From Escherichia phage HK97: a stretch of 39,732 nucleotides of DNA. This document shows positions 8,423 through 22,388 of this stretch, in pieces. The translations under genes were made by a program, and so were the position numbers. The notes beneath the pieces were generated by a model. That model worked only from the letters and a program-made list of their open reading frames with translations. It had not been told where the DNA came from and did no database searches. The stretch lies in sequence record NC_002167.1; one strand, given 5' to 3'. Every line of letters starts with the position of its first letter. The first letter of the stretch is position 1.

Positions 8423-8434
8423 ATGGGTGAAAAT

Positions 8435-11400
8435 ATGGCTACGTTGCGCGAACTGATCATCAAAATATCTGCAAACTCTCAGTCATTCCAGTCTGAAATT
8501 TCTCGTGCTTCAAGAATGGGGAATGACTATTACCGGGTAATGCAGACTGGAGGACGCCAATCGGCCGCAGCTTCGCGTGAAACTCAGCGTGCCTTGGCTG
8601 AGGTAACTAGTCAAATAAACACCGCGAAGGCCTCAGCACTGGGAATGGCTGGTGCATTTGCTGGAGCATTTGCGACTGGTCATCTTATATCGCTGGCCGA
8701 TGAATGGAGCTCTGTTAATGCCAGGCTAAAGCAGGCTTCCCAGTCGTCAGATGATTTCACGGAGTCCCAGCGGGCGCTGATGGATATTAGCCAGCGAACC
8801 GGAACCGCCTTCTCTGATAATGCGAGTCTTTTTGCGCGTTCAGCCGCTTCTATGCGTGAATATGGCTACAGTTCAGAAGAGGTTCTGAAGGTAACCGAGG
8901 CTATATCAACAGGGCTTAAGCTGTCAGGCGCAAGCGCGTCTGAAGCGAGTTCGGTAATCACGCAGTTCAGCCAGGCTCTGGCGCAGGGTGTTCTTCGAGG
9001 CGAGGAATTTAACTCCGTCAACGAAAACGGTGATCGAGTTATCCGTGCTCTTGCCGCAGGGATGGGTGTAGCTCGTAAAGATCTGAAGGCAATGGCCGAT
9101 CAGGGGATGCTAACCGCAGATAAAGTTGTCCCGGCCCTGATAAGTCAACTTGGCACTATGCGTGGTGAATTTGAGGCAATGCCGCAGACCGTTTCTGCTG
9201 CCACGACGAAAGTCGAAAATGCTTTCATGGCATGGGTAGGTGGCGCTAATGAAGCCACTGGTGCGACAAGTACTCTTGTTGCCGTATTGAATACGGTTTC
9301 TGACAATATAGACACTGTGGCTACGGCTGCCGGAGCTTTGGCTGCGATAGGTGGAGCTCGCTATCTTGGAGGGATGTTTGGCGATCTTGGGAACCAGACG
9401 GCGCAATTAATAGATGCCAGAAAGAACGAAATTGCGCTCGCAGCTGCAAGGGCTGAATCTGCTACCCAATCACAACGCAAGGCCGCCGCCGATGCTATTG
9501 CTGCTGAGCGAGCTTACCAGCTTGCTCAGTCAGAACTTGTGCTGGCAAAGAATACTAATGCTGAGGCTACTGCCACTCAAAATGCCATATCCAAGCGCCG
9601 GGCAATGATTACAGCAAATGCGGCACTGGTACAGTCAAACAGAGCCGTTGCAGCCTCTCAGCAGGCACTTAACTCTGCAACATCAGTGCTGGGGCTTGTA
9701 AAAACTGGCGCTACGGGTCTTTTGTCGTTAGTTGGTGGTTTGCCAGGAATTTTAATGTTGGGTGCTGGGGCGTGGTACACGATGTATCAACGCCAAGAAC
9801 AAGCCAGGGAATCTGCAATCCAATATGCGGACACAATCGAGCAGGTACGAGATAATCTGAAATCAATGTCTCAGACGCAGATATCCGCCAACCTTGGACA
9901 GGCGAATATTTCACTGGATGCTCAGAATAGTGCGATTGAACAGCAGAAGCAGAAAGTTGCTGAATTATCCAATCAACTTTATAACGCAAAATTAGCAGCC
10001 AATTCTGCTTCAGAGGGGACATGGCTGTATAACGATGCGGTTGAGAAAGCCGCAGACTTTGCTTCAGAACTTGCGGTTGAAGAAGGCCGACTTGAGCAAA
10101 TGCTCAATAAAAGAAAGCAAACACAACAGTTAATAAACGACATAACTGATCAGGCTATAAATAAAACAGTAGAAATGGCTGGCGCCGTAAGTTCTCTTAC
10201 AGAGATGTATGACCGGCTGAACAAGGTTTCCAGACAGTCTACAGCAGTGTCCCCACCAAAATATGCAGGACCTGTACTTCCTGCGCTTGATAATAAGCAA
10301 CAACAAGCTATTGAGAAAGCACAGCGACAGCTTGAGCTATCTGGCCTTCAGGGTTTGGATAAGGCTCGAAAGCAGGCAGAATTCGATGCATCTGATCTGA
10401 ACCTTCCAGCTGGTTGGCGTGAGAAATATGTCAGCATGGAAGTTGAGTCTGCTAGGCAATTACAAGCAATTCGTAACTCAAGCCGCCATAAGGGTGGAAA
10501 ATCCGAGGCGGAAAAAACAGCTGATACCTATGACAAGCTGATCAAGCAGCAAAAAGAGCAGATCGCTCTGCAAGGGCAGAATACCGAGCTGGCAAAGGTT
10601 AAATATCAGGTAAGCCAGGGTGAGCTTTCTACGCTAAGTCAGGCCCAGAAAGCCGAAGTTATGCGTAATGCTGCTCTCATCGATCAGGTTAAATTGCGTG
10701 GACAACTGCGAAATTACGAAGCCAACCTTGCTGACAGTAACGCCAGCGCCCGCGCAGCCAATGAAGCGCAACTGCTGGGCTACGGGCAGGGAACCAGGTT
10801 CCGTGAAAGACTTCAGGAGCAGTTCAATCTGCGTAAGGAGTTTGAGCAGAAGAATACCGATCTTCTCCGCCAGCGTCAGGCTGGTGAAATCGACGAGACG
10901 TTCTATCAGCAGGGGCTGGCACTTAATAAGCGCTACCTCGAAGAGCGCCTGCGCGACCAGGAGGGATATTACGCAGCTTCTGATGCGCAGCGTGACGACT
11001 GGATGACGGGACTGTCTGAGGGTTATGCGAACTGGGTGGATGAAGCGACAGATTACTCCTCCATGGCAGCTGACGGGATGAAGCAGGCAATGGGTGGGGC
11101 GGTAACTTCGATTACTGACATGCTCAATGGTAACGTCGACAGCTGGAAGGACTGGGGTGTCAGCGTACTGAAGATCATCCAGAATGTTCTGGTCAATATG
11201 GCTGTTGCTAACGGCGTCAGTTCAATTGGTTCTCTCTTCAGCTTTGGCGCATCTTCCGCCGCTGCCGCCAGTAGCGGTACTGCAATTCAGAACGCTGGCG
11301 CGAACTTCACCTTTAACGCGAAGGGTAATGTTTACGACTCTCCGTCCCTGAGCGCATACAGCAATGGCGTGTTTCAGACCCCTCAGCTTTTTGCTTTTGC

Positions 11401-11704
11401 CAAAGGAGCGGGTGTGTTTGCAGAGGCTGGACCTGAAGCCATTATGCCGCTTACCCGTGCTGCTGATGGTTCGCTTGGCGTTCGGGCTGTTGGCACTGGT
11501 GGTGGTGGTCAGGCTGTATCTTCGGCTCCACAGGTTTACTCACCAATCGATGGCAACGGAAATACTTCCACGCAGACTTCACCCGGCCTTGAGCAATTTG
11601 GTGCTGATGTCGGTAAATATATTGATCAGCGATATAAGCAGAACATCATGCGAGATATTCGCCCTGGCGGTGACATCTGGAACGCAATGAAAGGAACCCG
11701 ATAA
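8435..11704 (+). CDS. tail tape measure protein
   Basis: ORF of over 1000 aa, Ala/Gln-rich coiled-coil composition, between chaperones and M/L/K; start taken as ATG 8435 (MATLREL; in-frame ATG also at 8423). Confidence 0.85.
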   Translation: MATLRELIIKISANSQSFQSEISRASRMGNDYYRVMQTGGRQSAAASRETQRALAEVTSQINTAKASALGMAGAFAGAFATGHLISLADEWSSVNARLKQASQSSDDFTESQRALMDISQRTGTAFSDNASLFARSAASMREYGYSSEEVLKVTEAISTGLKLSGASASEASSVITQFSQALAQGVLRGEEFNSVNENGDRVIRALAAGMGVARKDLKAMADQGMLTADKVVPALISQLGTMRGEFEAMPQTVSAATTKVENAFMAWVGGANEATGATSTLVAVLNTVSDNIDTVATAAGALAAIGGARYLGGMFGDLGNQTAQLIDARKNEIALAAARAESATQSQRKAAADAIAAERAYQLAQSELVLAKNTNAEATATQNAISKRRAMITANAALVQSNRAVAASQQALNSATSVLGLVKTGATGLLSLVGGLPGILMLGAGAWYTMYQRQEQARESAIQYADTIEQVRDNLKSMSQTQISANLGQANISLDAQNSAIEQQKQKVAELSNQLYNAKLAANSASEGTWLYNDAVEKAADFASELAVEEGRLEQMLNKRKQTQQLINDITDQAINKTVEMAGAVSSLTEMYDRLNKVSRQSTAVSPPKYAGPVLPALDNKQQQAIEKAQRQLELSGLQGLDKARKQAEFDASDLNLPAGWREKYVSMEVESARQLQAIRNSSRHKGGKSEAEKTADTYDKLIKQQKEQIALQGQNTELAKVKYQVSQGELSTLSQAQKAEVMRNAALIDQVKLRGQLRNYEANLADSNASARAANEAQLLGYGQGTRFRERLQEQFNLRKEFEQKNTDLLRQRQAGEIDETFYQQGLALNKRYLEERLRDQEGYYAASDAQRDDWMTGLSEGYANWVDEATDYSSMAADGMKQAMGGAVTSITDMLNGNVDSWKDWGVSVLKIIQNVLVNMAVANGVSSIGSLFSFGASSAAAASSGTAIQNAGANFTFNAKGNVYDSPSLSAYSNGVFQTPQLFAFAKGAGVFAEAGPEAIMPLTRAADGSLGVRAVGTGGGGQAVSSAPQVYSPIDGNGNTSTQTSPGLEQFGADVGKYIDQRYKQNIMRDIRPGGDIWNAMKGTR

Positions 11705-12801: not shown

Positions 12802-13512
12802 ATGCGTCAGAAAACCATAGATGCGATTATGGCGCATGCTGCAGCTGAATATCCTCTTGAGTGTTGCGGCGTGGTGGCGCAGAAAAGCCGCGTTGAACGT
12901 TATTTCCCGTGCCGGAATCTTGCCGCGGCGCCGGAGGACAATTTTGTCCTTTGCCCCGAAGACTACGCAGCTGCTGAGGACTGGGGAACGGTGATCGCCA
13001 TCGTTCACAGTCACCCTGACGCCACTACGCAGCCGAGCGAACTGGATAAAGCGCAATGCGACGCAACGCTTTTACCCTGGCATATTGTGAGCTGGCCGGA
13101 GGGGGATTTACGCACCATCCAGCCGCGCGGAGAACTGCCGCTGCTGGAGCGTCCGTTTGTGCTTGGACACTTCGACTGCTGGGGGCTGGTAATGAGCTAT
13201 TTCCGGCAAACGCATGGTATCGAGCTCCACGATTACCGGGTGGATTATCCCTGGTGGGAAAACGACTATCCGGACAATTTTTATCAGGATTGCTGGTATG
13301 AATGCGGATTCAGGGAGTTTGACGGCCCGCCTCAGGAAGGGGACCTCGTCATCATGCAGGTGCAGGCCGATAAGTGGAATCATGCCGGGATTTTACTGGA
13401 GGGTAACATGCTGCTGCACCACCTGTACGGACATCTGAGCCAGCGCGTGCCGTATGGTGGCTACTGGCAGGAAAGGACGATGAAGATTCTTAGACATCAG
13501 AATTTTATTTAA
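12802..13512 (+). CDS. tail assembly protein K-like (MPN/JAMM + NlpC/P60)
   Basis: 236-aa ORF with HSHPD JAMM-type motif and a Cys/His peptidase-like C-terminal half. Confidence 0.75.
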   Translation: MRQKTIDAIMAHAAAEYPLECCGVVAQKSRVERYFPCRNLAAAPEDNFVLCPEDYAAAEDWGTVIAIVHSHPDATTQPSELDKAQCDATLLPWHIVSWPEGDLRTIQPRGELPLLERPFVLGHFDCWGLVMSYFRQTHGIELHDYRVDYPWWENDYPDNFYQDCWYECGFREFDGPPQEGDLVIMQVQADKWNHAGILLEGNMLLHHLYGHLSQRVPYGGYWQERTMKILRHQNFI

Positions 13513-13833: not shown

Positions 13834-14442
13834 ATGCAAGAGGTAATGACAAGAATTGAGCTAAGTGGCGTGCTAGCTAAGACATATGGAAGGGTTCATC
13901 ACCGTCTGGTTCGCACTACTGCTGAAGCCATTAATGCACTCGCGAAAACCATCAATGGATTCGAGAAATTCTTAAACACAAGCAAAGCCCGAGGGCTGAC
14001 GTATGCCGTTTATAGAGATAAAAAGAATATTGGCGTTGATGATCTCGGCTTTCCCGTCACCGGCGAAGTGATCCGGATTGTCCCTGTAGTAATAGGGAGT
14101 AAAAAGGCTGGTCTTTTGCAGACGATCTTGGGGGCCGTGCTTATTACTGCTGCTGTGTTGACTGGACCCGGCGGTATTGGCGCTGCTTTCGCTGCTGGTG
14201 GATTGACGGGGTTTGCTGCTGCCACTGGTGCCTCGTTGGTCCTCGGTGGGGTTATTCAGCTGCTTTCACCGCAGCCATCAGGCATAGCCAGTAAACAAAG
14301 CGCAGATAACCGTGCATCGTATGCGTTTGGCGGGGTAACCAACACTGCAGCGCAAGGCTACCCGGTGCCTCTGCTTTATGGTAAGCGTCGAATCGGCGGA
14401 GCGATTATTTCTGCCGGAATTTATGTCGAAGATCAACAATAA
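13834..14442 (+). CDS. tail assembly protein I-like
   Basis: 202-aa ORF with Gly/Ala-rich hydrophobic central segment, position between K and J. Confidence 0.7.
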   Translation: MQEVMTRIELSGVLAKTYGRVHHRLVRTTAEAINALAKTINGFEKFLNTSKARGLTYAVYRDKKNIGVDDLGFPVTGEVIRIVPVVIGSKKAGLLQTILGAVLITAAVLTGPGGIGAAFAAGGLTGFAAATGASLVLGGVIQLLSPQPSGIASKQSADNRASYAFGGVTNTAAQGYPVPLLYGKRRIGGAIISAGIYVEDQQ

Positions 14443-14474: not shown

Positions 14475-14837
14475 ATGGAAATGACTGTAGGATTCCCTGA
14501 AATGGGTTCACGATTTGAATATGTAAGCTTCGTTCCTGATTTAGAAATTAAAACAATTAAAACTGTCACAACCAAAATTACAGTTTGCAAGCTGGAACAA
14601 ATCAATGCGCCCCATGAATTGGTGTTTATCTATCAGGAGGATTTCAATCCAAGTAGCTCTTTTGCCGAAGTCGAAGCACGCGCTAAAGAATATGCCAGTA
14701 ATGCAATTGCCGGATTAAAAACCCCGGCTCAACCGGGGCAAAGCATTAACTTTGATGCGATGGTAAATATTATCAGCCCTGGCATACAACCTGGATACCG
14801 CCTCGGCTCGGCCTTGCTCTTGCATCGTCATTTTTGA
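14475..14837 (+). CDS. hypothetical protein (moron between I and J)
   Basis: 120-aa ORF with SD aggaga; 5' two-thirds AT-rich; 3' end overlaps a convergent ORF. Confidence 0.4.
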   Translation: MEMTVGFPEMGSRFEYVSFVPDLEIKTIKTVTTKITVCKLEQINAPHELVFIYQEDFNPSSSFAEVEARAKEYASNAIAGLKTPAQPGQSINFDAMVNIISPGIQPGYRLGSALLLHRHF

Positions 14838-15140: not shown

Positions 15141-18100
15141 ATGGCTACAGAGAAAGTATTAAAGGGCCGCAAGGGCGGCAGCTCCAGTTCACGAACTCCT
15201 ACCGAACAACCTGATGATCTGCAATCTGTAGCGAAGGCCAAAATCCTCGTTGCGCTTGGGGAAGGTGAGTTTGCAGGGCAGCTCACCGGCAAAGATATCT
15301 ACCTGGACGGAACAGCGCTGGAGAATGCTGACGGCTCCCAAAACTTCAGCGGGGTAACGTGGGAGTTTCGCGCGGGAACTCAGGCGCAAAAATATATTCA
15401 GGGTATTCCCGGTACCGAAAACGAGATCAGCGTAGGAACTGAGGTATCAAGTGCCACAACCTGGACGCGCACGTTTACCAATACGCAGCTTTCAGCAGTT
15501 CGCCTGCGTCTTAAATGGCCCTCGCTTTTCAAACAGGAGGACGACGGCGATCTGGTGGGTTACTCGGTCAATTATGCAATTGACCTGCAGACGGACGGCG
15601 GCACATGGCAGACGGTACTCAATACCAGCGTGACCGGCAAAACGACGTCTGGTTATGAGCGCAGCCACCGTATCGATTTACCGCAGGCTGGCAGCACATG
15701 GACAATACGTCTGCGTAAGATTACCTCTGACGCCAACAGCGCGAAGATCGGCGACACGATGATGCTGCAGAGCTTCACCGAGGTGATTGATGCCAAACTG
15801 CGCTACCCGAACACCGCGCTGCTCTACGTCGAATTCGACTCAAGCCAGTTCAACGGCTCTATTCCTCAAATTTCATGCGAACCGCGCGGCCGCGTTATCC
15901 GCGTTCCAGATACCTACGACCCTGAAACCCGCACTTATAGCGGTACATGGACCGGTGCGTTTAAGTGGGCATGGACGGATAACCCTGCGTGGATTTTTTA
16001 CGACCTGGTTGTTTCTGACCGGTTCGGCCTTGGGCACCGTTTGACCGCTGCGAATATTGATAAATGGACGCTTTATCAGGTTGCTCAGTATTGTGATCAG
16101 ATGGTACCAGACGGCAAAGGGGGCAACGGTACAGAACCACGTTATACCTGCAACGTGTACATTCAGGACCGGAACGACGCCTACACAGTCCTGCGTGATT
16201 TTGCCGCTATCTTCCGTGGCATGACCTACTGGGGCGGGGATCAGATTGTGGCCCTGGCTGACATGCCGCGCGATGTTGATTACAGCTATACGCGCGCTAA
16301 CGTTGTTGGCGGTCGCTTCACCTATTCGAGCAGCACCACGAAAAGCCGCTACACCACAGCGCTGGTTTCATGGTCAGACCCGGGTAACGCTTATGCCGAC
16401 GCGATGGAACCGGTATTTGAGCAGGCGCTGGTGGCGCGGTACGGCTTCAATCAGCTGGAAATGACAGCCATCGGCTGCACCAGGCAGTCAGAGGCGAACC
16501 GAAAGGGGCGCTGGGGTATTCTCACCAATAACAAGGATCGCGTTGTTTCGTTTGATGTCGGGCTGGACGGAAACATTCCGCAGCCGGGCTACATCATCGC
16601 CGTGGCAGACGAGCTGCTTTCCGGAAAGGTTATGGGCGGCCGCATCAGCGCCGTTAACGGTCGCGTTATCAAACTTGACCGCGTAGCTGATGCAGCACCA
16701 GGTGATCGCCTTATTCTCAACCTGCCTTCCGGAGCGTCGCAGAGCAGGACCATTCAGGCCGTGAACGGGGAATCAGTCACAGTCACCACGGCATACAGTG
16801 AGACGCCACAGGCCGAAGCTGTTTGGGTGGTTGAATCTGACGAGCTTTACGCGCAGCAGTATCGTGTTGTCAGCGTTTCCGATAACAATGATGGCACTTT
16901 CTCGATTACCGGCGCATGGCACGACCCGGATAAATATGCCCGTATCGATACCGGAGCCATCATTGACCAACGGCCGGTGAGCGTGATCCCGCCGGGCAAC
17001 CAGTCGCCGCCTGCGAATATCGTGATCAGCTCGTTTTCCGTGGTTCAGCAAAATATCAGCGTCGAAACAATGCGCGTGAGCTGGGACCAGGCGCAGAACG
17101 CTATCGCCTATGAAGCGCAATGGCGCCGCAACGACGGGAACTGGGTTAACGTGCCGCGCACCTCCACCACGTCATTCGACGTCCCGGGGATTTATGCCGG
17201 GCGCTACCTGGTGCGGGTGCGCGCAATCAATGCCGCAGAAATTTCATCCGGATGGGGCTATTCAGAAGAGAAAACGCTGACGGGTAAAGTGGGCAATCCA
17301 CCGAAGCCGGTTGGCTTTATCGCCTCTGAAAACGTGGTGTTCGGTATCGAGCTGAACTGGGGATTCCCGGCGAATACCGACGACACGCTGAAGACGGAAA
17401 TTCAGTACAGCCTGACCGGTACTGAAGACGATGCCATGCTGCTGGCCGATGTGCCTTACCCGCAGCGCAAATATCAGCAGATGGGCCTTAAGGCTGGGCA
17501 GATTTTCTGGTACCGCGCGCAGCTGGTTGACCGCAGCGGTAACGAGTCAGGTTATACCGGCTGGGTTCGTGGGCAGGCCAGTATCGATGTTTCTGACATC
17601 ACAGATGTGATCCTTGAAGACATCAAAGGGTCTGAGACGTTCAAAGACCTGATCGAGAACGCTGTGGACAGCAATGAAAAAATTGCTGGCATGGCTGACG
17701 ACATCAAACAGGCCAACGATGAACTTGAACTCCAGGCGCAGGAAATCGCAAAAAACGCGCAGGACATCGGGCAGGTTCAGACCAGCGTTAATGAGCTTTC
17801 TAGCACGGTCGGTGATGTGTCGTCTTCTCTCTCAGATCTTGAGCAGACTGTTGCGACTGCTGATACCGCACTGGGCCAGCGAATCGACAGCATCAGCGTG
17901 TCTATGGACGGCATGACGGGCGGGGTGAAGAACTCTGCTATCGCAATTATTCAGGGCAACCTGGCGCAGGTAGCCGCGCGTAAAACGTTGTCTGCATCTG
18001 TAGCAGGGAACAGCGCTCAGCTGGACCGTCTAGACGAGGTGATCGTCAGTGAGAAGGAAGCCACAGCACGTTCATTGCTGAGCCTGCAGACGGACGTCAA

Positions 18101-19031
18101 CGGCAACAAGGCATCCATCAACAGCCTGAATCAGACGCTCTCCGACTATCAGCAGGCCACCGCCACGCAGATAAACGGCATCACGGCGACCGTGAACGGG
18201 CATACCTCCGCCATCACCACTAACGCTCAGGCTATAGCCAACGTTAATGGCGAACTCAGCGCGATGTACAACATCAAGGTTGGTGTCTCCAGCAACGGGC
18301 AGTATTACGCCGCGGGCATGGGGATTGGCGTTGGGAACACGCCGTCAGGCATGCAGTCGCAGGTTATCTTCCTGGCTGACCCGTTCGCCGTCACCACGGC
18401 AGCAGGTAACAGCGTGGCTTTGCCGTTCGTGATCCAGAACGGGCAGACATTCATCCGGGCCAGCTTCATCCAGGACGGCACCATTGAGAACGCCAAAATC
18501 GGCAACTATATCCAGTCCAACAACTATGCAGCTGGTTCTGCTGGTTGGAAGTTGAATAAAGCTGGAGATGCTGAATTCAACAATGTGACCGTCAGAGGTG
18601 TAGTATATGCTAGTGGCGGTAGCTTTACTGGTGAGATCCAAGCAACAAGCGGTAAATTCAAAGGGACTGTGGAAGCCCAAAGTTTTATCGGGGACATTGC
18701 AAATATGCACACCGGAACTAACGTTAGTCGGTCTAGTAACGGTCTTTTAGAAAAGGTAATAACTTATACGGATTCATCCAGTTCTGGGCACGCAAGACAC
18801 GTCTGTGTTATAGCAAACGTGAGAGGGAATGGTGCAGGTACGATAAATATTAACGGATCTGAGGGCTCTTCCAGCGTACAGGATGTAGAACGACTTATTA
18901 TGCATTCTGCTGTTGTAACTGGTCCAAACGTTACGGTAAGAATTACAGTTTCCGCTCAGAACAATAGAGGGGCGTCTATATCCTCACCTACTATTATTGT
19001 TTCGCACGGATCCGGTTCATTCACTGGTTAA
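15141..19031 (+). CDS. J: tail tip / host specificity protein J-like
   Basis: 1296-aa ORF after I; size and position as lambda gpJ; C-terminal about 170 codons are compositionally distinct (AT-rich). Confidence 0.85.
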   Translation: MATEKVLKGRKGGSSSSRTPTEQPDDLQSVAKAKILVALGEGEFAGQLTGKDIYLDGTALENADGSQNFSGVTWEFRAGTQAQKYIQGIPGTENEISVGTEVSSATTWTRTFTNTQLSAVRLRLKWPSLFKQEDDGDLVGYSVNYAIDLQTDGGTWQTVLNTSVTGKTTSGYERSHRIDLPQAGSTWTIRLRKITSDANSAKIGDTMMLQSFTEVIDAKLRYPNTALLYVEFDSSQFNGSIPQISCEPRGRVIRVPDTYDPETRTYSGTWTGAFKWAWTDNPAWIFYDLVVSDRFGLGHRLTAANIDKWTLYQVAQYCDQMVPDGKGGNGTEPRYTCNVYIQDRNDAYTVLRDFAAIFRGMTYWGGDQIVALADMPRDVDYSYTRANVVGGRFTYSSSTTKSRYTTALVSWSDPGNAYADAMEPVFEQALVARYGFNQLEMTAIGCTRQSEANRKGRWGILTNNKDRVVSFDVGLDGNIPQPGYIIAVADELLSGKVMGGRISAVNGRVIKLDRVADAAPGDRLILNLPSGASQSRTIQAVNGESVTVTTAYSETPQAEAVWVVESDELYAQQYRVVSVSDNNDGTFSITGAWHDPDKYARIDTGAIIDQRPVSVIPPGNQSPPANIVISSFSVVQQNISVETMRVSWDQAQNAIAYEAQWRRNDGNWVNVPRTSTTSFDVPGIYAGRYLVRVRAINAAEISSGWGYSEEKTLTGKVGNPPKPVGFIASENVVFGIELNWGFPANTDDTLKTEIQYSLTGTEDDAMLLADVPYPQRKYQQMGLKAGQIFWYRAQLVDRSGNESGYTGWVRGQASIDVSDITDVILEDIKGSETFKDLIENAVDSNEKIAGMADDIKQANDELELQAQEIAKNAQDIGQVQTSVNELSSTVGDVSSSLSDLEQTVATADTALGQRIDSISVSMDGMTGGVKNSAIAIIQGNLAQVAARKTLSASVAGNSAQLDRLDEVIVSEKEATARSLLSLQTDVNGNKASINSLNQTLSDYQQATATQINGITATVNGHTSAITTNAQAIANVNGELSAMYNIKVGVSSNGQYYAAGMGIGVGNTPSGMQSQVIFLADPFAVTTAAGNSVALPFVIQNGQTFIRASFIQDGTIENAKIGNYIQSNNYAAGSAGWKLNKAGDAEFNNVTVRGVVYASGGSFTGEIQATSGKFKGTVEAQSFIGDIANMHTGTNVSRSSNGLLEKVITYTDSSSSGHARHVCVIANVRGNGAGTININGSEGSSSVQDVERLIMHSAVVTGPNVTVRITVSAQNNRGASISSPTIIVSHGSGSFTG

Positions 19032-19048
19032 ACAAAACCCCGCATTAG

Positions 19049-19157
19049 GGAAGGTGCGAATAAGTACCCTCCGCAACGAAAATGAAACTTTTAGTCAATT
19101 AAATTCAATCACTTACATAGGCGTTTTTTTGCGTTTGGTGACTTATTCGCACCTTCC
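19049..19157. repeat. 17-bp perfect inverted repeat flanking a 75-bp AT-rich spacer
   Basis: ggaaggtgcgaataagt at 19049-19065; exact reverse complement acttattcgcaccttcc at 19141-19157. Confidence 0.8.
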
Positions 19158-19238
19158 TTAAAAACCAATTCAGAAATTATTTCTGGTGAGGGTTATATAC
19201 CTCTCCGGGCTTCATGTTGTCTAAATTTAGGAGTTGTT

Positions 19239-20204
19239 ATGATTTATAGCACCGGAACTATCTCTATTAACGGAAATACCGCAACCGGCTCCGGTACAAA
19301 CTGGACAGCTCCCGCCAGCCAGGTCCGCGCTGGCCAGACGATTATCGTGATGTCTAACCCGGTGCAGCTGTTTCAGATTTCATCCGTGAACAGCGCCACG
19401 TCAATGACGGTTACTCCAGCTGCTTCCCCTGCGCTGAGCGGCCAGAAGTATGGAATTCTTGTGTCGGACATTATCTCGGTCGACGGACTGGCACAGGCGA
19501 TGTCACAGCTCATCAAAGAGTACGACGAGAACATTGGCGCGTGGGAGACGTTCGCCAGCACCTCAGCAAACCAAAGCATCACAGTTACCATCAACGGCAC
19601 CGCCGTAACCATCCCAGGCATCGGTAAACTTGCGCAGAAAGGGAGCAACGGTGCGGTTACTGTCGCAGACGGCGGAACCGGCGCAACGAATGCCGCAGAC
19701 GCTCGCACAAACCTTGGTTTGGGAGAAGGCTCTGCATTACCTGTTGGTGTCCCTGTTCCGTGGCCTTCCGCCACTCCGCCAACAGGCTGGCTGAAATGCA
19801 ACGGTGCGGTTTTTTCTGCTGAAGAATACCCGGAACTGGCAAAGGCTTATCCAACAAATAAATTGCCTGATTTACGTGGTGAGTTTATTCGTGGTTGGGA
19901 TGACGGGCGCGGTATTGACGCGGGGCGCGAAATTCTGTCTGCTCAGGGGGATGCTATTCGTAATATAACCGGCACATTTGGCGATGGAGAAACCGAAGTT
20001 AATGCGTCTATTAGCTTTTATAGGGCGGATGGTGTTTTTGTAACTCAGAAAAAACTTCGTAATACGATAGGTAACACCACAATCATTGCGGATACCCCAA
20101 ACAATCCTTATTTAATCAATTTTGATGCTTCAAGAGTAGTGCCAACTGCCTCAGAGAACAGACCAAGAAACATTGCATTTAACTACATTGTAAGGGCAGT
20201 ATAA
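19239..20204 (+). CDS. side tail fibre protein
   Basis: 321-aa ORF with SD aggag; Gly/Thr/Ala-rich repeats and tail-collar-like segment; last about 250 nt AT-rich. Confidence 0.65.
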   Translation: MIYSTGTISINGNTATGSGTNWTAPASQVRAGQTIIVMSNPVQLFQISSVNSATSMTVTPAASPALSGQKYGILVSDIISVDGLAQAMSQLIKEYDENIGAWETFASTSANQSITVTINGTAVTIPGIGKLAQKGSNGAVTVADGGTGATNAADARTNLGLGEGSALPVGVPVPWPSATPPTGWLKCNGAVFSAEEYPELAKAYPTNKLPDLRGEFIRGWDDGRGIDAGREILSAQGDAIRNITGTFGDGETEVNASISFYRADGVFVTQKKLRNTIGNTTIIADTPNNPYLINFDASRVVPTASENRPRNIAFNYIVRAV

Positions 20205-20812
20205 TGACCACAAAAGAAATCACCTTAGATGAAAACGGATTCGCAACAGAAGCTGGCTTCATCACCGTTTACAACTACAGCGGTGAAACGCGGGAATATA
20301 TTTCCACATCAACTGAATATCTTGCCGTTGGTGTCGGTATCCCGGCATGTTCTTGTTTAGATGCACCAGTTACACATAAAGCTGGTTATGCAATCTGCCG
20401 TTCTGCAGATTTTAACTCATGGGAATATGTGCCAGACCATCGCGGTGAAATCGTCTTTAGCACCGAAACAGGAGAATCAAAAGAAATCACAGCTCCGGGT
20501 GATTACCCTGATAATACAACCACTATCGCCCCGTTAACACCATACGATAAATGGGATGGTGAGAAATGGGTGACGGATACCGAAGCACAGCATAGCGCCG
20601 CAGTAGATGCAGCAGAAGCACAGCGCCAGTCACTGATTGATACTGCAATGGCTTCAATCAGTCTGATTCAGCTGAAATTACAGGCCGGACGGAAGTTGAC
20701 GCAGGCAGAAACAACCCGACTTAACGCCGTGCTGGATTACATTGACGCGGTGACGGCAACAGATACCAGCACCGCGCCGGATGTCATCTGGCCTGAACTG
20801 CCGGAGGCGTAG
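20204..20812 (+). CDS. tail fibre assembly protein (Tfa-like)
   Basis: 202-aa ORF coupled (ATGA) to the fibre gene; sequence resembles Tfa family. Confidence 0.7.
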   Translation: MTTKEITLDENGFATEAGFITVYNYSGETREYISTSTEYLAVGVGIPACSCLDAPVTHKAGYAICRSADFNSWEYVPDHRGEIVFSTETGESKEITAPGDYPDNTTTIAPLTPYDKWDGEKWVTDTEAQHSAAVDAAEAQRQSLIDTAMASISLIQLKLQAGRKLTQAETTRLNAVLDYIDAVTATDTSTAPDVIWPELPEA

Positions 20813-21042
20813 GCCATTCAATATCTGGCGCACCGGAAGTATCGACCAGCTCCAGTGCGTCCAGTTGACATCCTCCACGCCCTGAAGGACGGGGTTTTAC
20901 GGCGCACCGGATAAATCCAAATGGAGTTTCGGGAGATAAATGAAACCGCAGCCACGTCGTATGCAAGAACGTGCTGCGGTTGGCTGGTGAACTTTCGATA
21001 GTGCGAGTATTGAATGATTTCCAGCCGTTACCGATTTTACGA

Positions 21043-21084
21043 CAAAAAATTAGCGCAAGAAGACAAAAATCACCTTGCGCTAAT
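21043..21084 (-). terminator. tI/sib-like terminator beyond attP
   Basis: 11-bp perfect inverted repeat attagcgcaag / cttgcgctaat with 14-nt loop, followed on the minus strand by a T-run; about 150-190 bp beyond the attP core as for lambda tI. Confidence 0.5.
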
Positions 21085-21229
21085 GCTCTGTCTCAGGTCA
21101 CTAATACTATCTAAGTAGTTGATTCATAGTGACTGGATATGTTGTGTTTTGTAGCATCATGTAGTCTATTTTTTATACTAAAGATATTGTAACACATTGA
21201 TATTAATGATTTTTAATGTTTCACGTTCA

Positions 21230-21244
21230 GCTTTTTTATACTAA
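21230..21244. other. attP: attP core (lambda-type)
   Basis: GCTTTTTTATACTAA, which I recall as the lambda att core, flanked by AT-rich arms, directly downstream of int-xis. Confidence 0.85.
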
Positions 21245-21317
21245 GTTGGCATTATAAAAAAGCATTGCTTATCAATTTGTTGCAACGAACAGGTCACTAT
21301 CAGTCAAAATAAAATCA

Positions 21318-22388
21318 TTATTTGATTTCAATTTTGTCCCACTCCCTGCCTCTGTCATCACGATACTGTGATGCCATGGTGTCCGACTTATGCCCGAGAA
21401 GATGTTGAGCAAACTTATCGCTTATCTGCTTCTCATAGAGTCTTGCAGACAAACTGCGCAACTCGTGAAAGGTAGGCGGATCCCCTTCGAAGGAAAGACC
21501 TGATGCTTTTCGTGCGCGCATAAAATACCTTGATACTGTGCCGGATGAAAGCGGTTCGCGACGAGTAGATGCAATTATGGTTTCTCCGCCAAGAATCTCT
21601 TTGCATTTATCAAGTGTTTCCTTCATTGATATTCCGAGAGCATCAACATGCAATGCTGTTGGGATGGCAATTTTTACGCCTGTTTTGCTTTGCTCGACAT
21701 AAAGATATCCATCTACGATATCAGACCACTTCATTTCGCATAAATCACCAACTCGTTGCCCGGTAACAACAGCCAGTTCCATTGCAAGTCTGAGCCAACA
21801 TGGTGATGATTCTGCTGCTTGATAAATTTTCAGGTATTCGTCAGCCGTAAGTCTTGATCTCCTTACCTCTGATTTTGCTGCGCGAGTGGCAGCGACCGGG
21901 TTTGTTGTTATATGGCCTTCAGCTATTGCCTCTCGGAATGCATCGCTCAGTGTTGATCTGATTAACTTGGCTGACGCAGCCTTGCCCTCGTCTATGTATC
22001 CATTGAGCATTGCCGCAATTTCTTTTGTGGTGATGTCTTCAAGTGGAGCATCAGGCAGCCCCCTCCTTATTGCTTTAATTTTGCTCATGTAATTTATGAG
22101 TGTCTTCTGCTTGATTCCTCTGCTGGCGAGGATTTTTTCGTAGCGATCAAGCCATGAATGTAACGTAACAGAATTATCACTGTTGATTCTTGCTGTCAGA
22201 GGCTTGTGTTTGTGTCCTGAAAATAACTCAATGTTGGCCTGTATAGCTTCAGTGATTGCTATCCTCCTGTCTCGGCCTAATCCGAACTCTTTACCCGTCC
22301 TTGGGTCCCTGTAGCAGTAATATCCATTGTTTCTTATATAAAGGTTAGGGGGTAAATCCCGGCGCTCATGACTTCGCCTTCTTCCCAT
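21318..22388 (-). CDS. int: tyrosine integrase (lambda Int)
   Basis: 356-aa ORF essentially matching recalled lambda Int (MGRRRSHERRDLPPNLYIRNNGYY…). Confidence 0.95.
   Translation of the reverse strand: MGRRRSHERRDLPPNLYIRNNGYYCYRDPRTGKEFGLGRDRRIAITEAIQANIELFSGHKHKPLTARINSDNSVTLHSWLDRYEKILASRGIKQKTLINYMSKIKAIRRGLPDAPLEDITTKEIAAMLNGYIDEGKAASAKLIRSTLSDAFREAIAEGHITTNPVAATRAAKSEVRRSRLTADEYLKIYQAAESSPCWLRLAMELAVVTGQRVGDLCEMKWSDIVDGYLYVEQSKTGVKIAIPTALHVDALGISMKETLDKCKEILGGETIIASTRREPLSSGTVSRYFMRARKASGLSFEGDPPTFHELRSLSARLYEKQISDKFAQHLLGHKSDTMASQYRDDRGREWDKIEIK

What the first reader, a model, noticed from the sequence alone, without database searches (positions are those of the whole stretch)
18500..19031. 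Compositional break inside J marks a swapped receptor-binding C-terminus
The last roughly 500 nt of the J-like gene are much more AT-rich than the rest of the gene. The same is true for the last roughly 250 nt of the fibre gene (19950-20204). This is the signature of horizontally exchanged receptor-binding domains and predicts a host receptor different from that of phages sharing only the J N-terminal region.
Basis: partly seen in the sequence, partly recalled or inferred. Interest (0 to 1): 0.4.

Follow-up and report, generated by a model that had tools for sequence, protein, structure and literature searches.

The report
Swapped LamB-binding tip of HK97 J
The AT-rich last ~540 bases of the tail-tip gene J of phage HK97 are a horizontally exchanged receptor-binding module shared with unrelated virulent phages that use the LamB porin, which fits HK97's known use of LamB where its sister phage HK022 uses FhuA; this is a real but textbook kind of phage mosaicism.

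Summary
The window is the complete genome of coliphage HK97: J, stf and tfa are exact matches to NP_037717-9 on a 39,732-bp contig. GC in J falls from 0.558 to 0.439 at nt 18494 (GC3 0.65 to 0.36; 0/1000 codon shuffles reach this). GC in the side-fibre gene falls from 0.55 to 0.38 at 19954 (0/1000).

At 18480-18485 the sequence switches from the lambdoid J-body type to the type found in virulent Queuovirinae, whose genomes have GC 0.44. KurtStettler and the mEp010 group, which carry this tail type, need LamB. HK97 is reported to adsorb to LamB, and HK022 uses FhuA.

Two refinements apply.
- The GC break is an old module boundary that prophages such as the one in E. coli Nissle also carry.
- HK97's most recent junctions lie elsewhere, at about 17890-17950 and 18785-18821. 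The last 242 nt are 98% identical to KurtStettler.

One extra observation: a 109-bp MITE with IS5 ends sits directly after J. It occupies the place of about 650 bp that in relatives encode a LamB-linked superinfection-exclusion lipoprotein. The kind of event is already known, so interest is low to moderate.

The parts
15141..19031 (+). Gene J (central tail fibre / tip attachment protein), 1296 aa; an exact match to HK97 NP_037717.1
   Evidence: ORF list; exact-sequence look-up; Pfam FNIII-A_GpJ at residues 92-218, Phage-tail_3 at 344-505 and Phage_Tail_Tip at 1024-1161
15141..17890 (+). J body segment of HK022 type, GC about 0.56. It is 95-96% identical to HK022/HK106 over the whole body and 98-100% identical to HK022 where sliding windows were computed (16800-17880)
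   Evidence: blastn 95.5-96.0% over 15141-18561; sliding identity from 16800; informative sites
17891..18484 (+). J body segment closest to prophage J alleles: EC2001-type, then Nissle-type (100% over 18060-18240), then EC2001-type again. It is still of lambdoid-body composition
   Evidence: Sliding identity; site-by-site pattern
18480..18494 (+). Deep module boundary, where both composition and ancestry switch. It lies in codons for ...FIQDGT|IENAKIGN... (J residues about 1114-1118), inside the conserved Phage_Tail_Tip domain
   Evidence: Informative-site switch between 18480 and 18485, with 216 of 252 sites consistent; maximum-likelihood GC break at 18494; alignment
18485..18785 (+). J tail, proximal part: the beta-helical linker and the start of the receptor-binding domain. 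It is 96-100% identical to the Nissle/EC2001 prophage alleles and 81-92% to phage 9g
18821..19031 (+). J tail, distal part (last ~70-80 aa of the receptor-binding domain). Over 18790-19031 it is 237/242 nt identical to virulent LamB-dependent KurtStettler and 233/242 to Dru_SM1, but only 77% to 9g
   Evidence: receptor of KurtStettler from PMC8594841
18693..19028 (+). Predicted globular all-beta receptor-binding domain (J residues about 1185-1296), starting after the conserved IGDI motif
   Evidence: AlphaFold models with pLDDT above 90 over this stretch; the best PDB fold matches are lambda gpJ in complex with LamB
19032..19043 (+). Remnant (left arm, ACAAAACCCCGC) of the terminator hairpin that follows J in KurtStettler and Dru_SM1; the right arm is missing
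   Evidence: Direct comparison of post-stop sequences; blastn homology ends at 19041-19043
19049..19157 (.). 109-bp MITE whose two 16-bp ends are identical to the left inverted repeat of IS5. It is flanked by TTAG (19045-19048) and TTAA (19158-19161)
   Evidence: Inverted repeat; comparison with IS5A of MG1655 and with 4 other copies that have perfect 4-bp duplications; 188 copies in 75 E. coli genomes; absent from the phage collection; only these two IR matches in the window
19158..19238 (+). Upstream region of stf, 98-100% identical to the Nissle and EC2001 prophages. It starts at the TTAA that is the stop codon of the DUF6453 gene in those prophages
19239..20204 (+). Side tail fibre gene stf (321 aa, NP_037718.1), with a Collar domain at residues 170-217
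19954..20204 (+). AT-rich stf tip (GC 0.38). Within it, about 19920-20130 has no close relative: HK106 falls from 100% to 30-40% identity, and the best phage protein match is 56%
20204..20812 (+). Tail fibre assembly gene tfa (202 aa, NP_037719.1). The first ~300 nt are AT-rich (GC 0.44) and belong to the same low-GC block as the stf tip

Best explanation
The window is phage HK97. Its J protein is a chimera. The first ~1114 residues are the lambdoid tail-tip body that builds the tip complex. The last ~180 residues are a cassette consisting of a beta-helical linker and a ~110-residue beta-sandwich receptor-binding domain (RBD). This cassette circulates among unrelated siphophages: temperate lambdoid prophages, the temperate mEp010 group and the virulent Queuovirinae. 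It keeps a GC content of 0.43-0.44 in all of them. That value equals the ambient GC of Queuovirinae, so in a lambdoid J (GC 0.56) the cassette shows up as a sharp AT-rich step. The join lies in a conserved motif (FIQDGTI.NAKIGN), which gives short homology for recombination (inferred).

The cassette determines the outer-membrane receptor. Every phage with this tail type whose receptor has been tested needs LamB, whereas phages sharing only the J body (HK022 type, with cor) use FhuA. The domain probably works like lambda gpJ: the trimeric RBD docks on the LamB trimer and opens the tip (inferred from fold similarity and from the literature).

The exchange is layered. An old body/tail junction at 18480-18494 is shared with prophage alleles. 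Recent homologous exchanges lie at about 17890-17950 and 18785-18821, and the second one brought in a distal RBD half that is 98% identical to the virulent phage KurtStettler.

The side fibre shows the same principle. A low-GC module made of the stf tip and the tfa N-terminus holds a ~200-nt patch unique to HK97.

Next to J, an IS5-ended MITE occupies the place of about 650 bp that in relatives hold the J terminator's right arm, a LamB-linked exclusion lipoprotein gene and a DUF6453 gene. The most likely cause is a transposition-associated adjacent deletion.
For: Identity as HK97: exact protein matches on a 39,732-bp contig. Composition: (0/1000 shuffles for J and for stf; the GC3 shift). Discordant relatives: (body) against (tail). 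Coincidence of the ancestry switch (18480/18485) with the GC break (18494). Constant tail GC of 0.43-0.44 against J-body GC of 0.44 (Queuovirinae), 0.49 (mEp010) and 0.55-0.56 (lambdoids). Same junction in prophages of 32 genomes. A 1029-nt cassette (J tail, terminator, lipoprotein gene, start of the lateral-fibre gene) 89% identical between 9g and the Nissle prophage. Fine mosaic and junction positions. Receptors: KurtStettler LamB (PMC8594841); mEp010/013/044/554 LamB (PMC11893012); HK97 LamB (PMC6832061); HK022 FhuA (PMC6814406); Cor inactivates FhuA (PMC3594210). Fold: the RBD is modelled at pLDDT above 90, and the top PDB hits are lambda gpJ-LamB 8xcj/8xck (E 6e-7 and 9e-5; TM 0.52-0.57 for the domain alone). 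MITE and deletion. Lipoprotein homology to the tested Lpp010.
Against: No experiment here or in the papers I read maps LamB binding to HK97 J residues 1185-1296. The assignment rests on homology and on analogy with lambda. The RBD has no detectable sequence similarity to lambda's LamB-binding domain. The fold match is only moderate (TM about 0.55), and generic TNF-like jelly rolls score similarly. The direction of transfer is inferred from composition alone, and the flanking moron-like DNA is even more AT-rich (0.37-0.41) than Queuovirinae genomes. The pre-MITE state of the HK97 lineage is inferred from relatives, not observed. The junction coordinates depend on the few relatives available.
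Confidence: 0.85

Rival explanations
1. The AT-rich tail is not foreign. Its composition reflects the amino-acid content or a functional constraint of a receptor-binding domain that evolved in place, for example fast diversifying evolution.
For: The distal parts of other J genes are also lower in GC than their bodies: the HK022/HK106 tail and cor region is at 0.467-0.473, and the mEp010 tail is at 0.438 against a body at 0.493. A general property of RBD regions is therefore conceivable.
Against: The shift is in synonymous positions (GC3 0.65 to 0.36) while GC2 rises. The closest relatives change abruptly at the same place. The last 242 nt are 98% identical to a virulent phage whose genome is otherwise unrelated.
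Confidence: 0.03
2. The GC break is the scar of one recent swap in the HK97 lineage itself: an HK022-like J recombined at nt ~18490 with a Queuovirinae J.
For: Against HK022/HK106 versus 9g, the informative sites switch at 18480-18485, next to the GC break. At 90% identity HK97's J forms a cluster of one among the proteins of the collection.
Against: Prophage J alleles (Nissle, EC2001) with quite different N-terminal bodies have the same junction and the same GC step, and they are 96-100% identical to HK97 straight through it (18015-18760). HK97's identity to HK022 already ends at about 17890-17950, roughly 550 nt upstream. A further junction lies at 18785-18821.
Confidence: 0.08
3. The direction is the opposite, or neither. 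The cassette is native to temperate enterobacterial prophages, or to a third unknown low-GC gene pool, and the Queuovirinae acquired it.
For: 9g's own annotation calls its neighbouring side-fibre genes similar to lambdoid prophages. The cassette includes a superinfection-exclusion lipoprotein, a typical temperate-phage moron. DNA downstream of J in the prophages is at GC 0.37-0.41, below the Queuovirinae average.
Against: The tail's GC (0.43-0.44) equals that of the whole Queuovirinae J gene and of the flanking locus (0.44-0.45), where it makes no step. It makes a step in both temperate groups.
Confidence: 0.2
4. The MITE simply inserted into an intergenic region that never held the lipoprotein and DUF6453 genes, so no deletion was associated with it.
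For: The pre-insertion state of the HK97 lineage is not observed. HK106 and HK022 have a different gene set at this position: two hypothetical genes and cor.
Against: Homology to KurtStettler/Dru_SM1 stops 5 nt before the MITE, inside their terminator hairpin. Homology to the Nissle prophage resumes at the first base after the MITE, at the DUF6453 stop codon. The two flanks are TTAG and TTAA, whereas four independent copies have perfect 4-bp duplications.
Confidence: 0.12

Closest known systems
Lambda gpJ C-terminal receptor-binding domain bound to LamB (PDB 8xcj/8xck; Ge and Wang 2024, as cited in PMC11893012)
   Same: Same protein family (Pfam FNIII-A_GpJ, Phage-tail_3, Phage_Tail_Tip) and the same position after K and I. 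It has the same layout of a beta-helical linker, an (I/V)GDI motif and a terminal all-beta domain. It is the best fold match and the reported receptor is the same, LamB.
   Different: There is no detectable sequence similarity in the receptor-binding domain itself. The domain is shorter, about 110 aa against about 135 aa. The fold match is only moderate (TM about 0.55). How it contacts LamB is unknown.
HK022-type J tail with gp25, gp26 and cor (FhuA-specific module of HK022, HK106, mEp235 and others)
   Same: Same J body (95-100% nt), the same kind of drop in GC after the body (0.47) and the same position in the genome.
   Different: The tail is unrelated beyond nt 18561. HK97's J is 113 aa longer. 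HK97 has no gp25, gp26 or cor genes. The receptor is FhuA instead of LamB.
J-like tail tip proteins of LamB-dependent small siphoviruses of the BASEL collection (KurtStettler/Bas22) and of 9g and Dru_SM1 (Queuovirinae)
   Same: The C-terminal 196 aa are 79-89% identical and the last 242 nt are 96-98% identical to Dru_SM1 and KurtStettler. The terminator's left arm after the stop codon is the same. KurtStettler depends on LamB.
   Different: The rest of J and the rest of the genome are unrelated: virulent phages of 56-60 kb with GC 0.44 and 7-deazaguanine DNA (PMC8594841). Those phages keep the reverse-strand lipoprotein gene after J, which HK97 lacks.
mEp010-group (mEpimmI) J plus the Lpp010 exclusion lipoprotein
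   Same: J tail 50-63% identical and LamB-dependent. The lipoprotein gene directly after J (gp116 = Lpp010) is 51% identical to the one in the Nissle-type prophages.
   Different: A more distant allele in a different phage group. HK97 has no lipoprotein gene at this position.
IS5 and bacterial MITEs
   Same: Both ends of the 109-bp element equal the 16-bp left IR of IS5. Other copies have 4-bp duplications of TTAG, TTAA or TTAT. The element has many copies per genome and no coding capacity.
   Different: The interior has no similarity to IS5. In HK97 the two flanks are not a duplication. I found no published description of this element.

Membership tests
Lambda-like tip attachment protein J (TipJ / central tail fibre) | Pfam domains FNIII-A_GpJ, Phage-tail_3 and Phage_Tail_Tip in this order | tested here: met
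   E 3e-50, 2e-13 and 3e-47, all above the curated cut-offs
Lambda-like tip attachment protein J (TipJ / central tail fibre) | Gene lies after the K-like and I-like tail genes and before the side-fibre genes | tested here: met
   ORFs 12802-13512 and 13834-14442 precede J and stf/tfa follow it; the HK106 annotation of the homologous genes agrees
Lambda-like tip attachment protein J (TipJ / central tail fibre) | C-terminal receptor-binding domain with the fold of lambda gpJ's RBD | tested here: inconclusive
   Lambda gpJ is the top PDB hit (E 6e-7 and 9e-5) but TM is only 0.52-0.57, and unrelated jelly rolls score similarly
LamB-type J tail cassette (9g / KurtStettler / Nissle prophage / mEp010 type) | Sequence homology over the last ~180-196 aa of J | tested here: met
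   88.8%, 79.6%, 79.1% and 62.6% aa identity at 95-100% coverage; 237/242 nt identical to KurtStettler at the end
LamB-type J tail cassette (9g / KurtStettler / Nissle prophage / mEp010 type) | Infection depends on LamB | not testable with these tools
   Literature only: HK97 adsorbs to LamB (PMC6832061). KurtStettler and the mEp010 group are LamB-dependent
LamB-type J tail cassette (9g / KurtStettler / Nissle prophage / mEp010 type) | Terminator hairpin and a reverse-strand ~77-82-aa lipoprotein gene (phrog_12984, Lpp010 type) directly after J | tested here: not met
   Present in 9g, KurtStettler, Dru_SM1, mEp010, Nissle and EC2001. In the window only the hairpin's left arm remains, and no such ORF exists in 19032-19238
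HK022-type FhuA module (J tail + gp25 + gp26 + cor) | Homologous J tail followed by the two small genes and cor | tested here: not met
   Homology to HK022/HK106 ends at 18561 and resumes at 19238; the three genes are absent
IS5-derived MITE | Terminal inverted repeats matching IS5, small size, no transposase | tested here: met
   16/16 identity at both ends to IS5A of MG1655; 109 bp; no similarity inside
IS5-derived MITE | Multiple copies at unrelated sites with 4-bp target duplications | tested here: met
   188 places in 75 genomes, up to 32 per genome. Four copies examined have TTAG/TTAG, TTAA/TTAA, TTAT/TTAT and TTAG/TTAG
IS5-derived MITE | The copy in the window is a simple insertion with a duplicated target | tested here: not met
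   The flanks are TTAG and TTAA, and the flanking DNA is not contiguous in relatives; this is read as an adjacent deletion
IS5-derived MITE | Mobilised in trans by the IS5 transposase | not testable with these tools
   Inferred from identical ends only

The most novel reading that the evidence does not exclude
HK97 acquired the distal half of its LamB-binding domain very recently from (or shared it with) virulent Seuratvirus-type phages: 98% identity over 242 nt against otherwise unrelated genomes. An IS5-ended MITE then deleted the linked LamB-blocking exclusion lipoprotein gene. HK97 would thus be a natural 'exclusion-minus' variant of a receptor cassette that normally travels as RBD plus cognate exclusion gene. 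That would make HK97 and the Nissle-type prophages a ready test pair for whether this lipoprotein family blocks LamB. It would also be the first example I am aware of where a MITE reshapes a phage host-range locus.
Probability: 0.35. Interest if true: 0.45.

Novelty: already known. Interest (0 to 1): 0.27.

Why it matters
The finding confirms, in one of the best-studied lambdoid phages, that a compositional step inside J is a reliable sequence-only marker of the exchangeable receptor-binding cassette. The cassette's relatives correctly predict the receptor: LamB for HK97 and FhuA for HK022. That supports in-silico receptor prediction for prophages, for example the Nissle 1917 prophage, which carries the same tail type. 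The added details are of modest but real use for work on superinfection exclusion and on engineering host range. They are the near-identity of the distal RBD half to a virulent phage, the ~1-kb cassette shared between virulent and temperate phages, and the replacement of the linked exclusion lipoprotein gene by a MITE. None of this changes current understanding of how J proteins evolve.

Tried and rejected
- HK97 (NC_002167) is not in the annotated phage collection, so identity was established through exact protein look-up instead.
- The original genome paper (Juhala et al. 2000) and Cumby et al. 2012 are not held. I therefore could not check what they say about the J C-terminus or the MITE. 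My statement that HK97/HK022 mosaicism was described there rests on citations in other papers and on memory.
- blastn alone put the end of HK022/HK106 homology at 18561. Informative-site analysis showed that this is an over-extension through a conserved motif and that the true switch is at 18480-18485.
- I first read the break as HK97's own recombination scar. The sliding identity against prophage alleles ruled that out.
- The first structure model (196 aa) had a poorly modelled linker, which depressed TM scores. A domain-only model gave a cleaner but still moderate match.
- The search for homologous proteins returned only 20 proteins, mostly partial, so the alignment behind the models is shallow.
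- The promoter/terminator scan found nothing in the J-stf gap.
- One E. coli MITE hit seemed to share flanks with HK97 (H153). Inspection showed an ordinary TTAG/TTAG insertion in an unrelated tail gene region, with only chance similarity in the flanks.
- Literature searches for an IS5-ended MITE in E. coli or phages found nothing specific.
- DNA searches for the stf tip patch (19958-20132) found no relative in the phage collection.
Full report
IDENTITY OF THE WINDOW. The window is a complete lambdoid phage genome. The 1296-aa product of 15141-19031 is an exact match to NP_037717.1 (tail protein, Escherichia phage HK97). The next two genes match NP_037718.1 and NP_037719.1 exactly. All of them lie on a contig of 39,732 bases, which is the length of the window. 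HK97 itself is missing from the annotated phage collection. The nearest records there are HK106, HK633, HK75, HK022 and the mEp phages.

THE OBSERVATION. A sliding GC profile shows J at 0.55-0.59 until about 18400 and at 0.43-0.45 from 18500 to the stop codon. A single-break likelihood scan puts the break at 18494/18495, with GC 0.558 before it and 0.439 after it and LLR 13.15. None of 1000 codon shuffles reached that value; the largest was 9.29. The change sits at synonymous positions: GC3 falls from 0.65 to 0.358 while GC2 rises. It is therefore not a by-product of amino-acid content. The fibre gene stf (19239-20204) has a break at 19954/19955, with GC 0.55 before and 0.38 after, and 0/1000 shuffles reach it. 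Its low-GC block runs on into the first ~300 nt of tfa. One caveat: the J tail's GC3 is below the 5th percentile of equal-sized windows in the other late genes, but it is not the lowest value.

WHO ARE THE RELATIVES OF EACH PART. The J body matches HK022 and HK106 at 95-96% over 15141-18561 by blastn and at 98-100% over 16800-17880 in sliding windows. The last 196 aa find none of these phages. The best matches are the virulent Queuovirinae: 9g at 88.8%, Dru_SM1 at 79.6% and KurtStettler at 79.1%. Next come the temperate non-lambdoid mEp010 group at 50-63% and many other small siphoviruses at about 35-50% (DNA level). I then took the sites where HK022 and HK106 agree with each other but differ from 9g. 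At these sites the window switches from the first type to the second between 18480 and 18485, and 216 of 252 sites fit a single switch. This is within 15 nt of the GC break. The switch lies in the codons for FIQDGT|IENAKIGN (J residues about 1114-1118). That motif is conserved in all J types compared and lies inside the Pfam Phage_Tail_Tip domain, residues 1024-1161.

COMPOSITION OF THE CASSETTE IN DIFFERENT GENOMES. The tail has GC 0.43-0.44 wherever it occurs, whereas the J body differs between groups: 0.44 in 9g, KurtStettler and Dru_SM1, 0.49 in mEp010 and 0.55-0.56 in HK97 and the prophages. The cassette thus keeps its own composition. That composition equals the ambient GC of Queuovirinae, where it produces no step. 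This is the basis for inferring, though not proving, a low-GC origin.

THE BREAK IS OLDER THAN HK97. A query spanning the junction (18250-19044) matches prophages in 54 E. coli genomes. In 32 of them the match covers more than 80% of the query at about 90-91.5% identity, and E. coli Nissle 1917 is among them. In the Nissle and EC2001 prophages the first two thirds of J are only about 65-69% identical to HK97. From nt 17508 onward they match at about 89%, and they show the same GC step, 0.55 to 0.44. Sliding identity and site-by-site analysis show a fine mosaic in HK97:
- HK022 type up to about 17890
- EC2001 type to about 18000
- Nissle type (100%) over about 18015-18280
- EC2001 type over about 18300-18420
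- both prophage types at 96-100% from 18420 to 18785, straight through the GC break
- KurtStettler/Dru_SM1 type from 18821 to the stop codon, at 237/242 and 233/242 identical against 186/242 for 9g

So the GC step marks the deep boundary between a lambdoid body and a Queuovirinae-like tail. The most recent exchanges in HK97's ancestry lie about 550 nt upstream of that boundary and about 300 nt downstream of it, and the second one lies inside the receptor-binding domain.

RECEPTOR. According to the literature, HK97 adsorbs to LamB (PMC6832061 citing Dhillon 1980 and Cumby 2015; bioRxiv 10.1101/2025.12.01.691526). The HK022 receptor is FhuA (PMC6814406), and the Cor protein of HK022 inactivates FhuA (PMC3594210). 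KurtStettler (Bas22) depends on LamB (PMC8594841). So do mEp010, mEp013, mEp044 and mEp554 (PMC11893012). The prediction made from the sequence alone is therefore borne out.

HOW THE DOMAIN IS BUILT. A sequence search of the PDB with J residues 901-1296 aligns lambda gpJ, an F2-pyocin fibre and other J-like proteins only up to about residue 1190. BLASTP against the last 232 aa of lambda J finds only 26% identity over 54 aa in the linker that ends in the shared (I/V)GDI motif. AlphaFold models give a confident all-beta domain (pLDDT above 90) for residues about 1185-1293. The best Foldseek hits in the PDB are lambda gpJ bound to LamB and its closed state (8xcj, 8xck), together with the OmpC-binding A8 variant (9wca). 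For the domain alone E goes down to 9e-5 and TM is 0.52-0.57, but unrelated TNF-like jelly rolls score almost as well. I read this as the same general architecture as lambda with a different binding surface. The actual contacts with LamB remain unknown.

WHAT FOLLOWS J. In 9g, KurtStettler, Dru_SM1, mEp010 and the Nissle and EC2001 prophages, J is followed by a terminator hairpin and a reverse-strand gene for a 77-82-aa lipoprotein (phrog_12984). The mEp010 copy is gp116, or Lpp010, which has been shown to exclude LamB-dependent phages including lambda. The prophage protein is 51% identical to it. 9g and the Nissle prophage share 1029 nt at 89% identity. That stretch covers the J tail, the terminator, the lipoprotein gene and the first ~85 nt of 9g's lateral-fibre gene, so the mobile unit is about 1 kb.

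In HK97 only the first ~600 nt of that unit remain. After the stop codon the left arm of the KurtStettler/Dru_SM1 hairpin (ACAAAACCCCGC) is kept. Five bases later a 109-bp element begins (19049-19157). Both of its ends are identical to the 16-bp left inverted repeat of IS5A from MG1655, and its interior is unrelated to IS5. The element occurs at 188 places in 75 of 5426 E. coli genomes, with up to 32 copies per genome, at 99-100% identity and in unrelated contexts. It is absent from the phage collection. Four copies that I examined have perfect 4-bp target duplications. In HK97 the flanks are TTAG and TTAA. The DNA to the right (19158 onward) is 98-100% identical to the Nissle prophage, starting at the TTAA that is the stop codon of its DUF6453 gene. 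About 650 bp, holding the hairpin's right arm, the lipoprotein gene and the DUF6453 gene, are therefore replaced by the MITE. The most economical reading is an insertion followed by a transposition-associated adjacent deletion. As RNA the region folds into a long hairpin (-66.6 kcal/mol, z = -6.6), which follows trivially from the inverted repeats.

THE FIBRE. HK106 is 100% identical to HK97 from about 19560 to 19830. It drops to 30-40% over about 19920-20100 and returns to 99-100% from about 20240. The divergent patch has no DNA relative in the phage collection. The best protein matches to the stf tip are only 44-56% identical, and many of them are fibres of P2-like and other myoviruses. In the EC2001 prophage, an 80.6%-identical copy of HK97's stf C-terminus plus tfa lies in inverted orientation next to a recombinase gene, which looks like an invertible fibre-tip cassette. 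The fibre part of the finding is thus also confirmed. As in J, the compositional block is larger and older than the most recent replacement inside it.

COMPARISON WITH WHAT IS KNOWN, AND VERDICT. Exchange of the C-terminal receptor-binding part of J-like proteins is a textbook theme, as are linked exclusion genes and AT-rich morons in HK97 and HK022 (PMC8594841; PMC3594210). HK97's receptor is established. The finding is correct and well observed, but the kind of event is already known. Three things seem not to be described in the literature I could search:
- the IS5-ended MITE at this locus and the loss of the exclusion lipoprotein gene
- the 98% identity of the distal RBD half to a virulent Seuratvirus
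- the demonstration that the GC step is an inherited module boundary and not HK97's own scar

These raise the interest slightly above that of a routine mosaic junction.

Noticed in passing
window 19045-19161: A 109-bp MITE with both ends identical to the 16-bp IR of IS5, flanked by TTAG and TTAA. There are 188 copies in 75 E. coli genomes and none in 50,697 phage records. I found no published description.
   Followed up: yes
window 19032-19238, compared with L009 5283-5975: HK97 lacks the reverse-strand 77-aa lipoprotein gene (a homolog of the LamB-linked exclusion protein Lpp010) and a DUF6453 gene, both of which follow this J tail type in relatives. About 650 bp are replaced by the MITE.
   Followed up: yes
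L009 4687-5715 and L003 3996-5024: A ~1.03-kb cassette (J tail, terminator, lipoprotein gene, first ~85 nt of 9g's lateral-fibre gene) is 89% identical between the virulent phage 9g and the E. coli Nissle 1917 prophage. The prophage keeps a truncated 'MAIRLH...' start of the 9g-type fibre gene.
   Followed up: partly
L008 7242-8392 (EC2001 prophage), compared with window 19714-20864: HK97's stf C-terminus plus tfa is present at 80.6% identity in inverted orientation next to a recombinase-family gene. This suggests an invertible fibre-tip cassette like the Mu G or P1 C segments.
   Followed up: no
window about 19920-20130: A patch of about 200 nt in the stf tip has no DNA relative in the phage collection and at best 56% protein identity elsewhere, although the flanks are 99-100% identical to HK106. 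The side-fibre receptor of HK97 may therefore differ from that of HK106.
   Followed up: partly
window 14475-14837: An AT-rich (GC about 0.39-0.41) 120-aa ORF lies between the I-like gene and J, at the place where HK022 has moron genes. Its only match is the unannotated phrog_11851 (E 4e-5).
   Followed up: partly
window 20900-21400: The lowest GC of the region (0.33) lies between tfa and int, where HK106 annotates a lambda-like attP core. Homology to HK106 has a small gap at 21035-21041.
   Followed up: no
window 8423-11704: The tape-measure gene has a much lower GC3 (0.46) than the other late genes (about 0.60-0.65). It probably contains the lowest-GC3 window among the late genes (0.341), so J is not the only compositionally heterogeneous late gene.
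   Followed up: no
window 15141-19031: At 90% identity HK97's full-length J and its stf each form a cluster with a single member in a collection of about 15 billion proteins, although every segment of J has relatives at 96-100% identity. The particular combination seems unique to HK97.
   Followed up: partly
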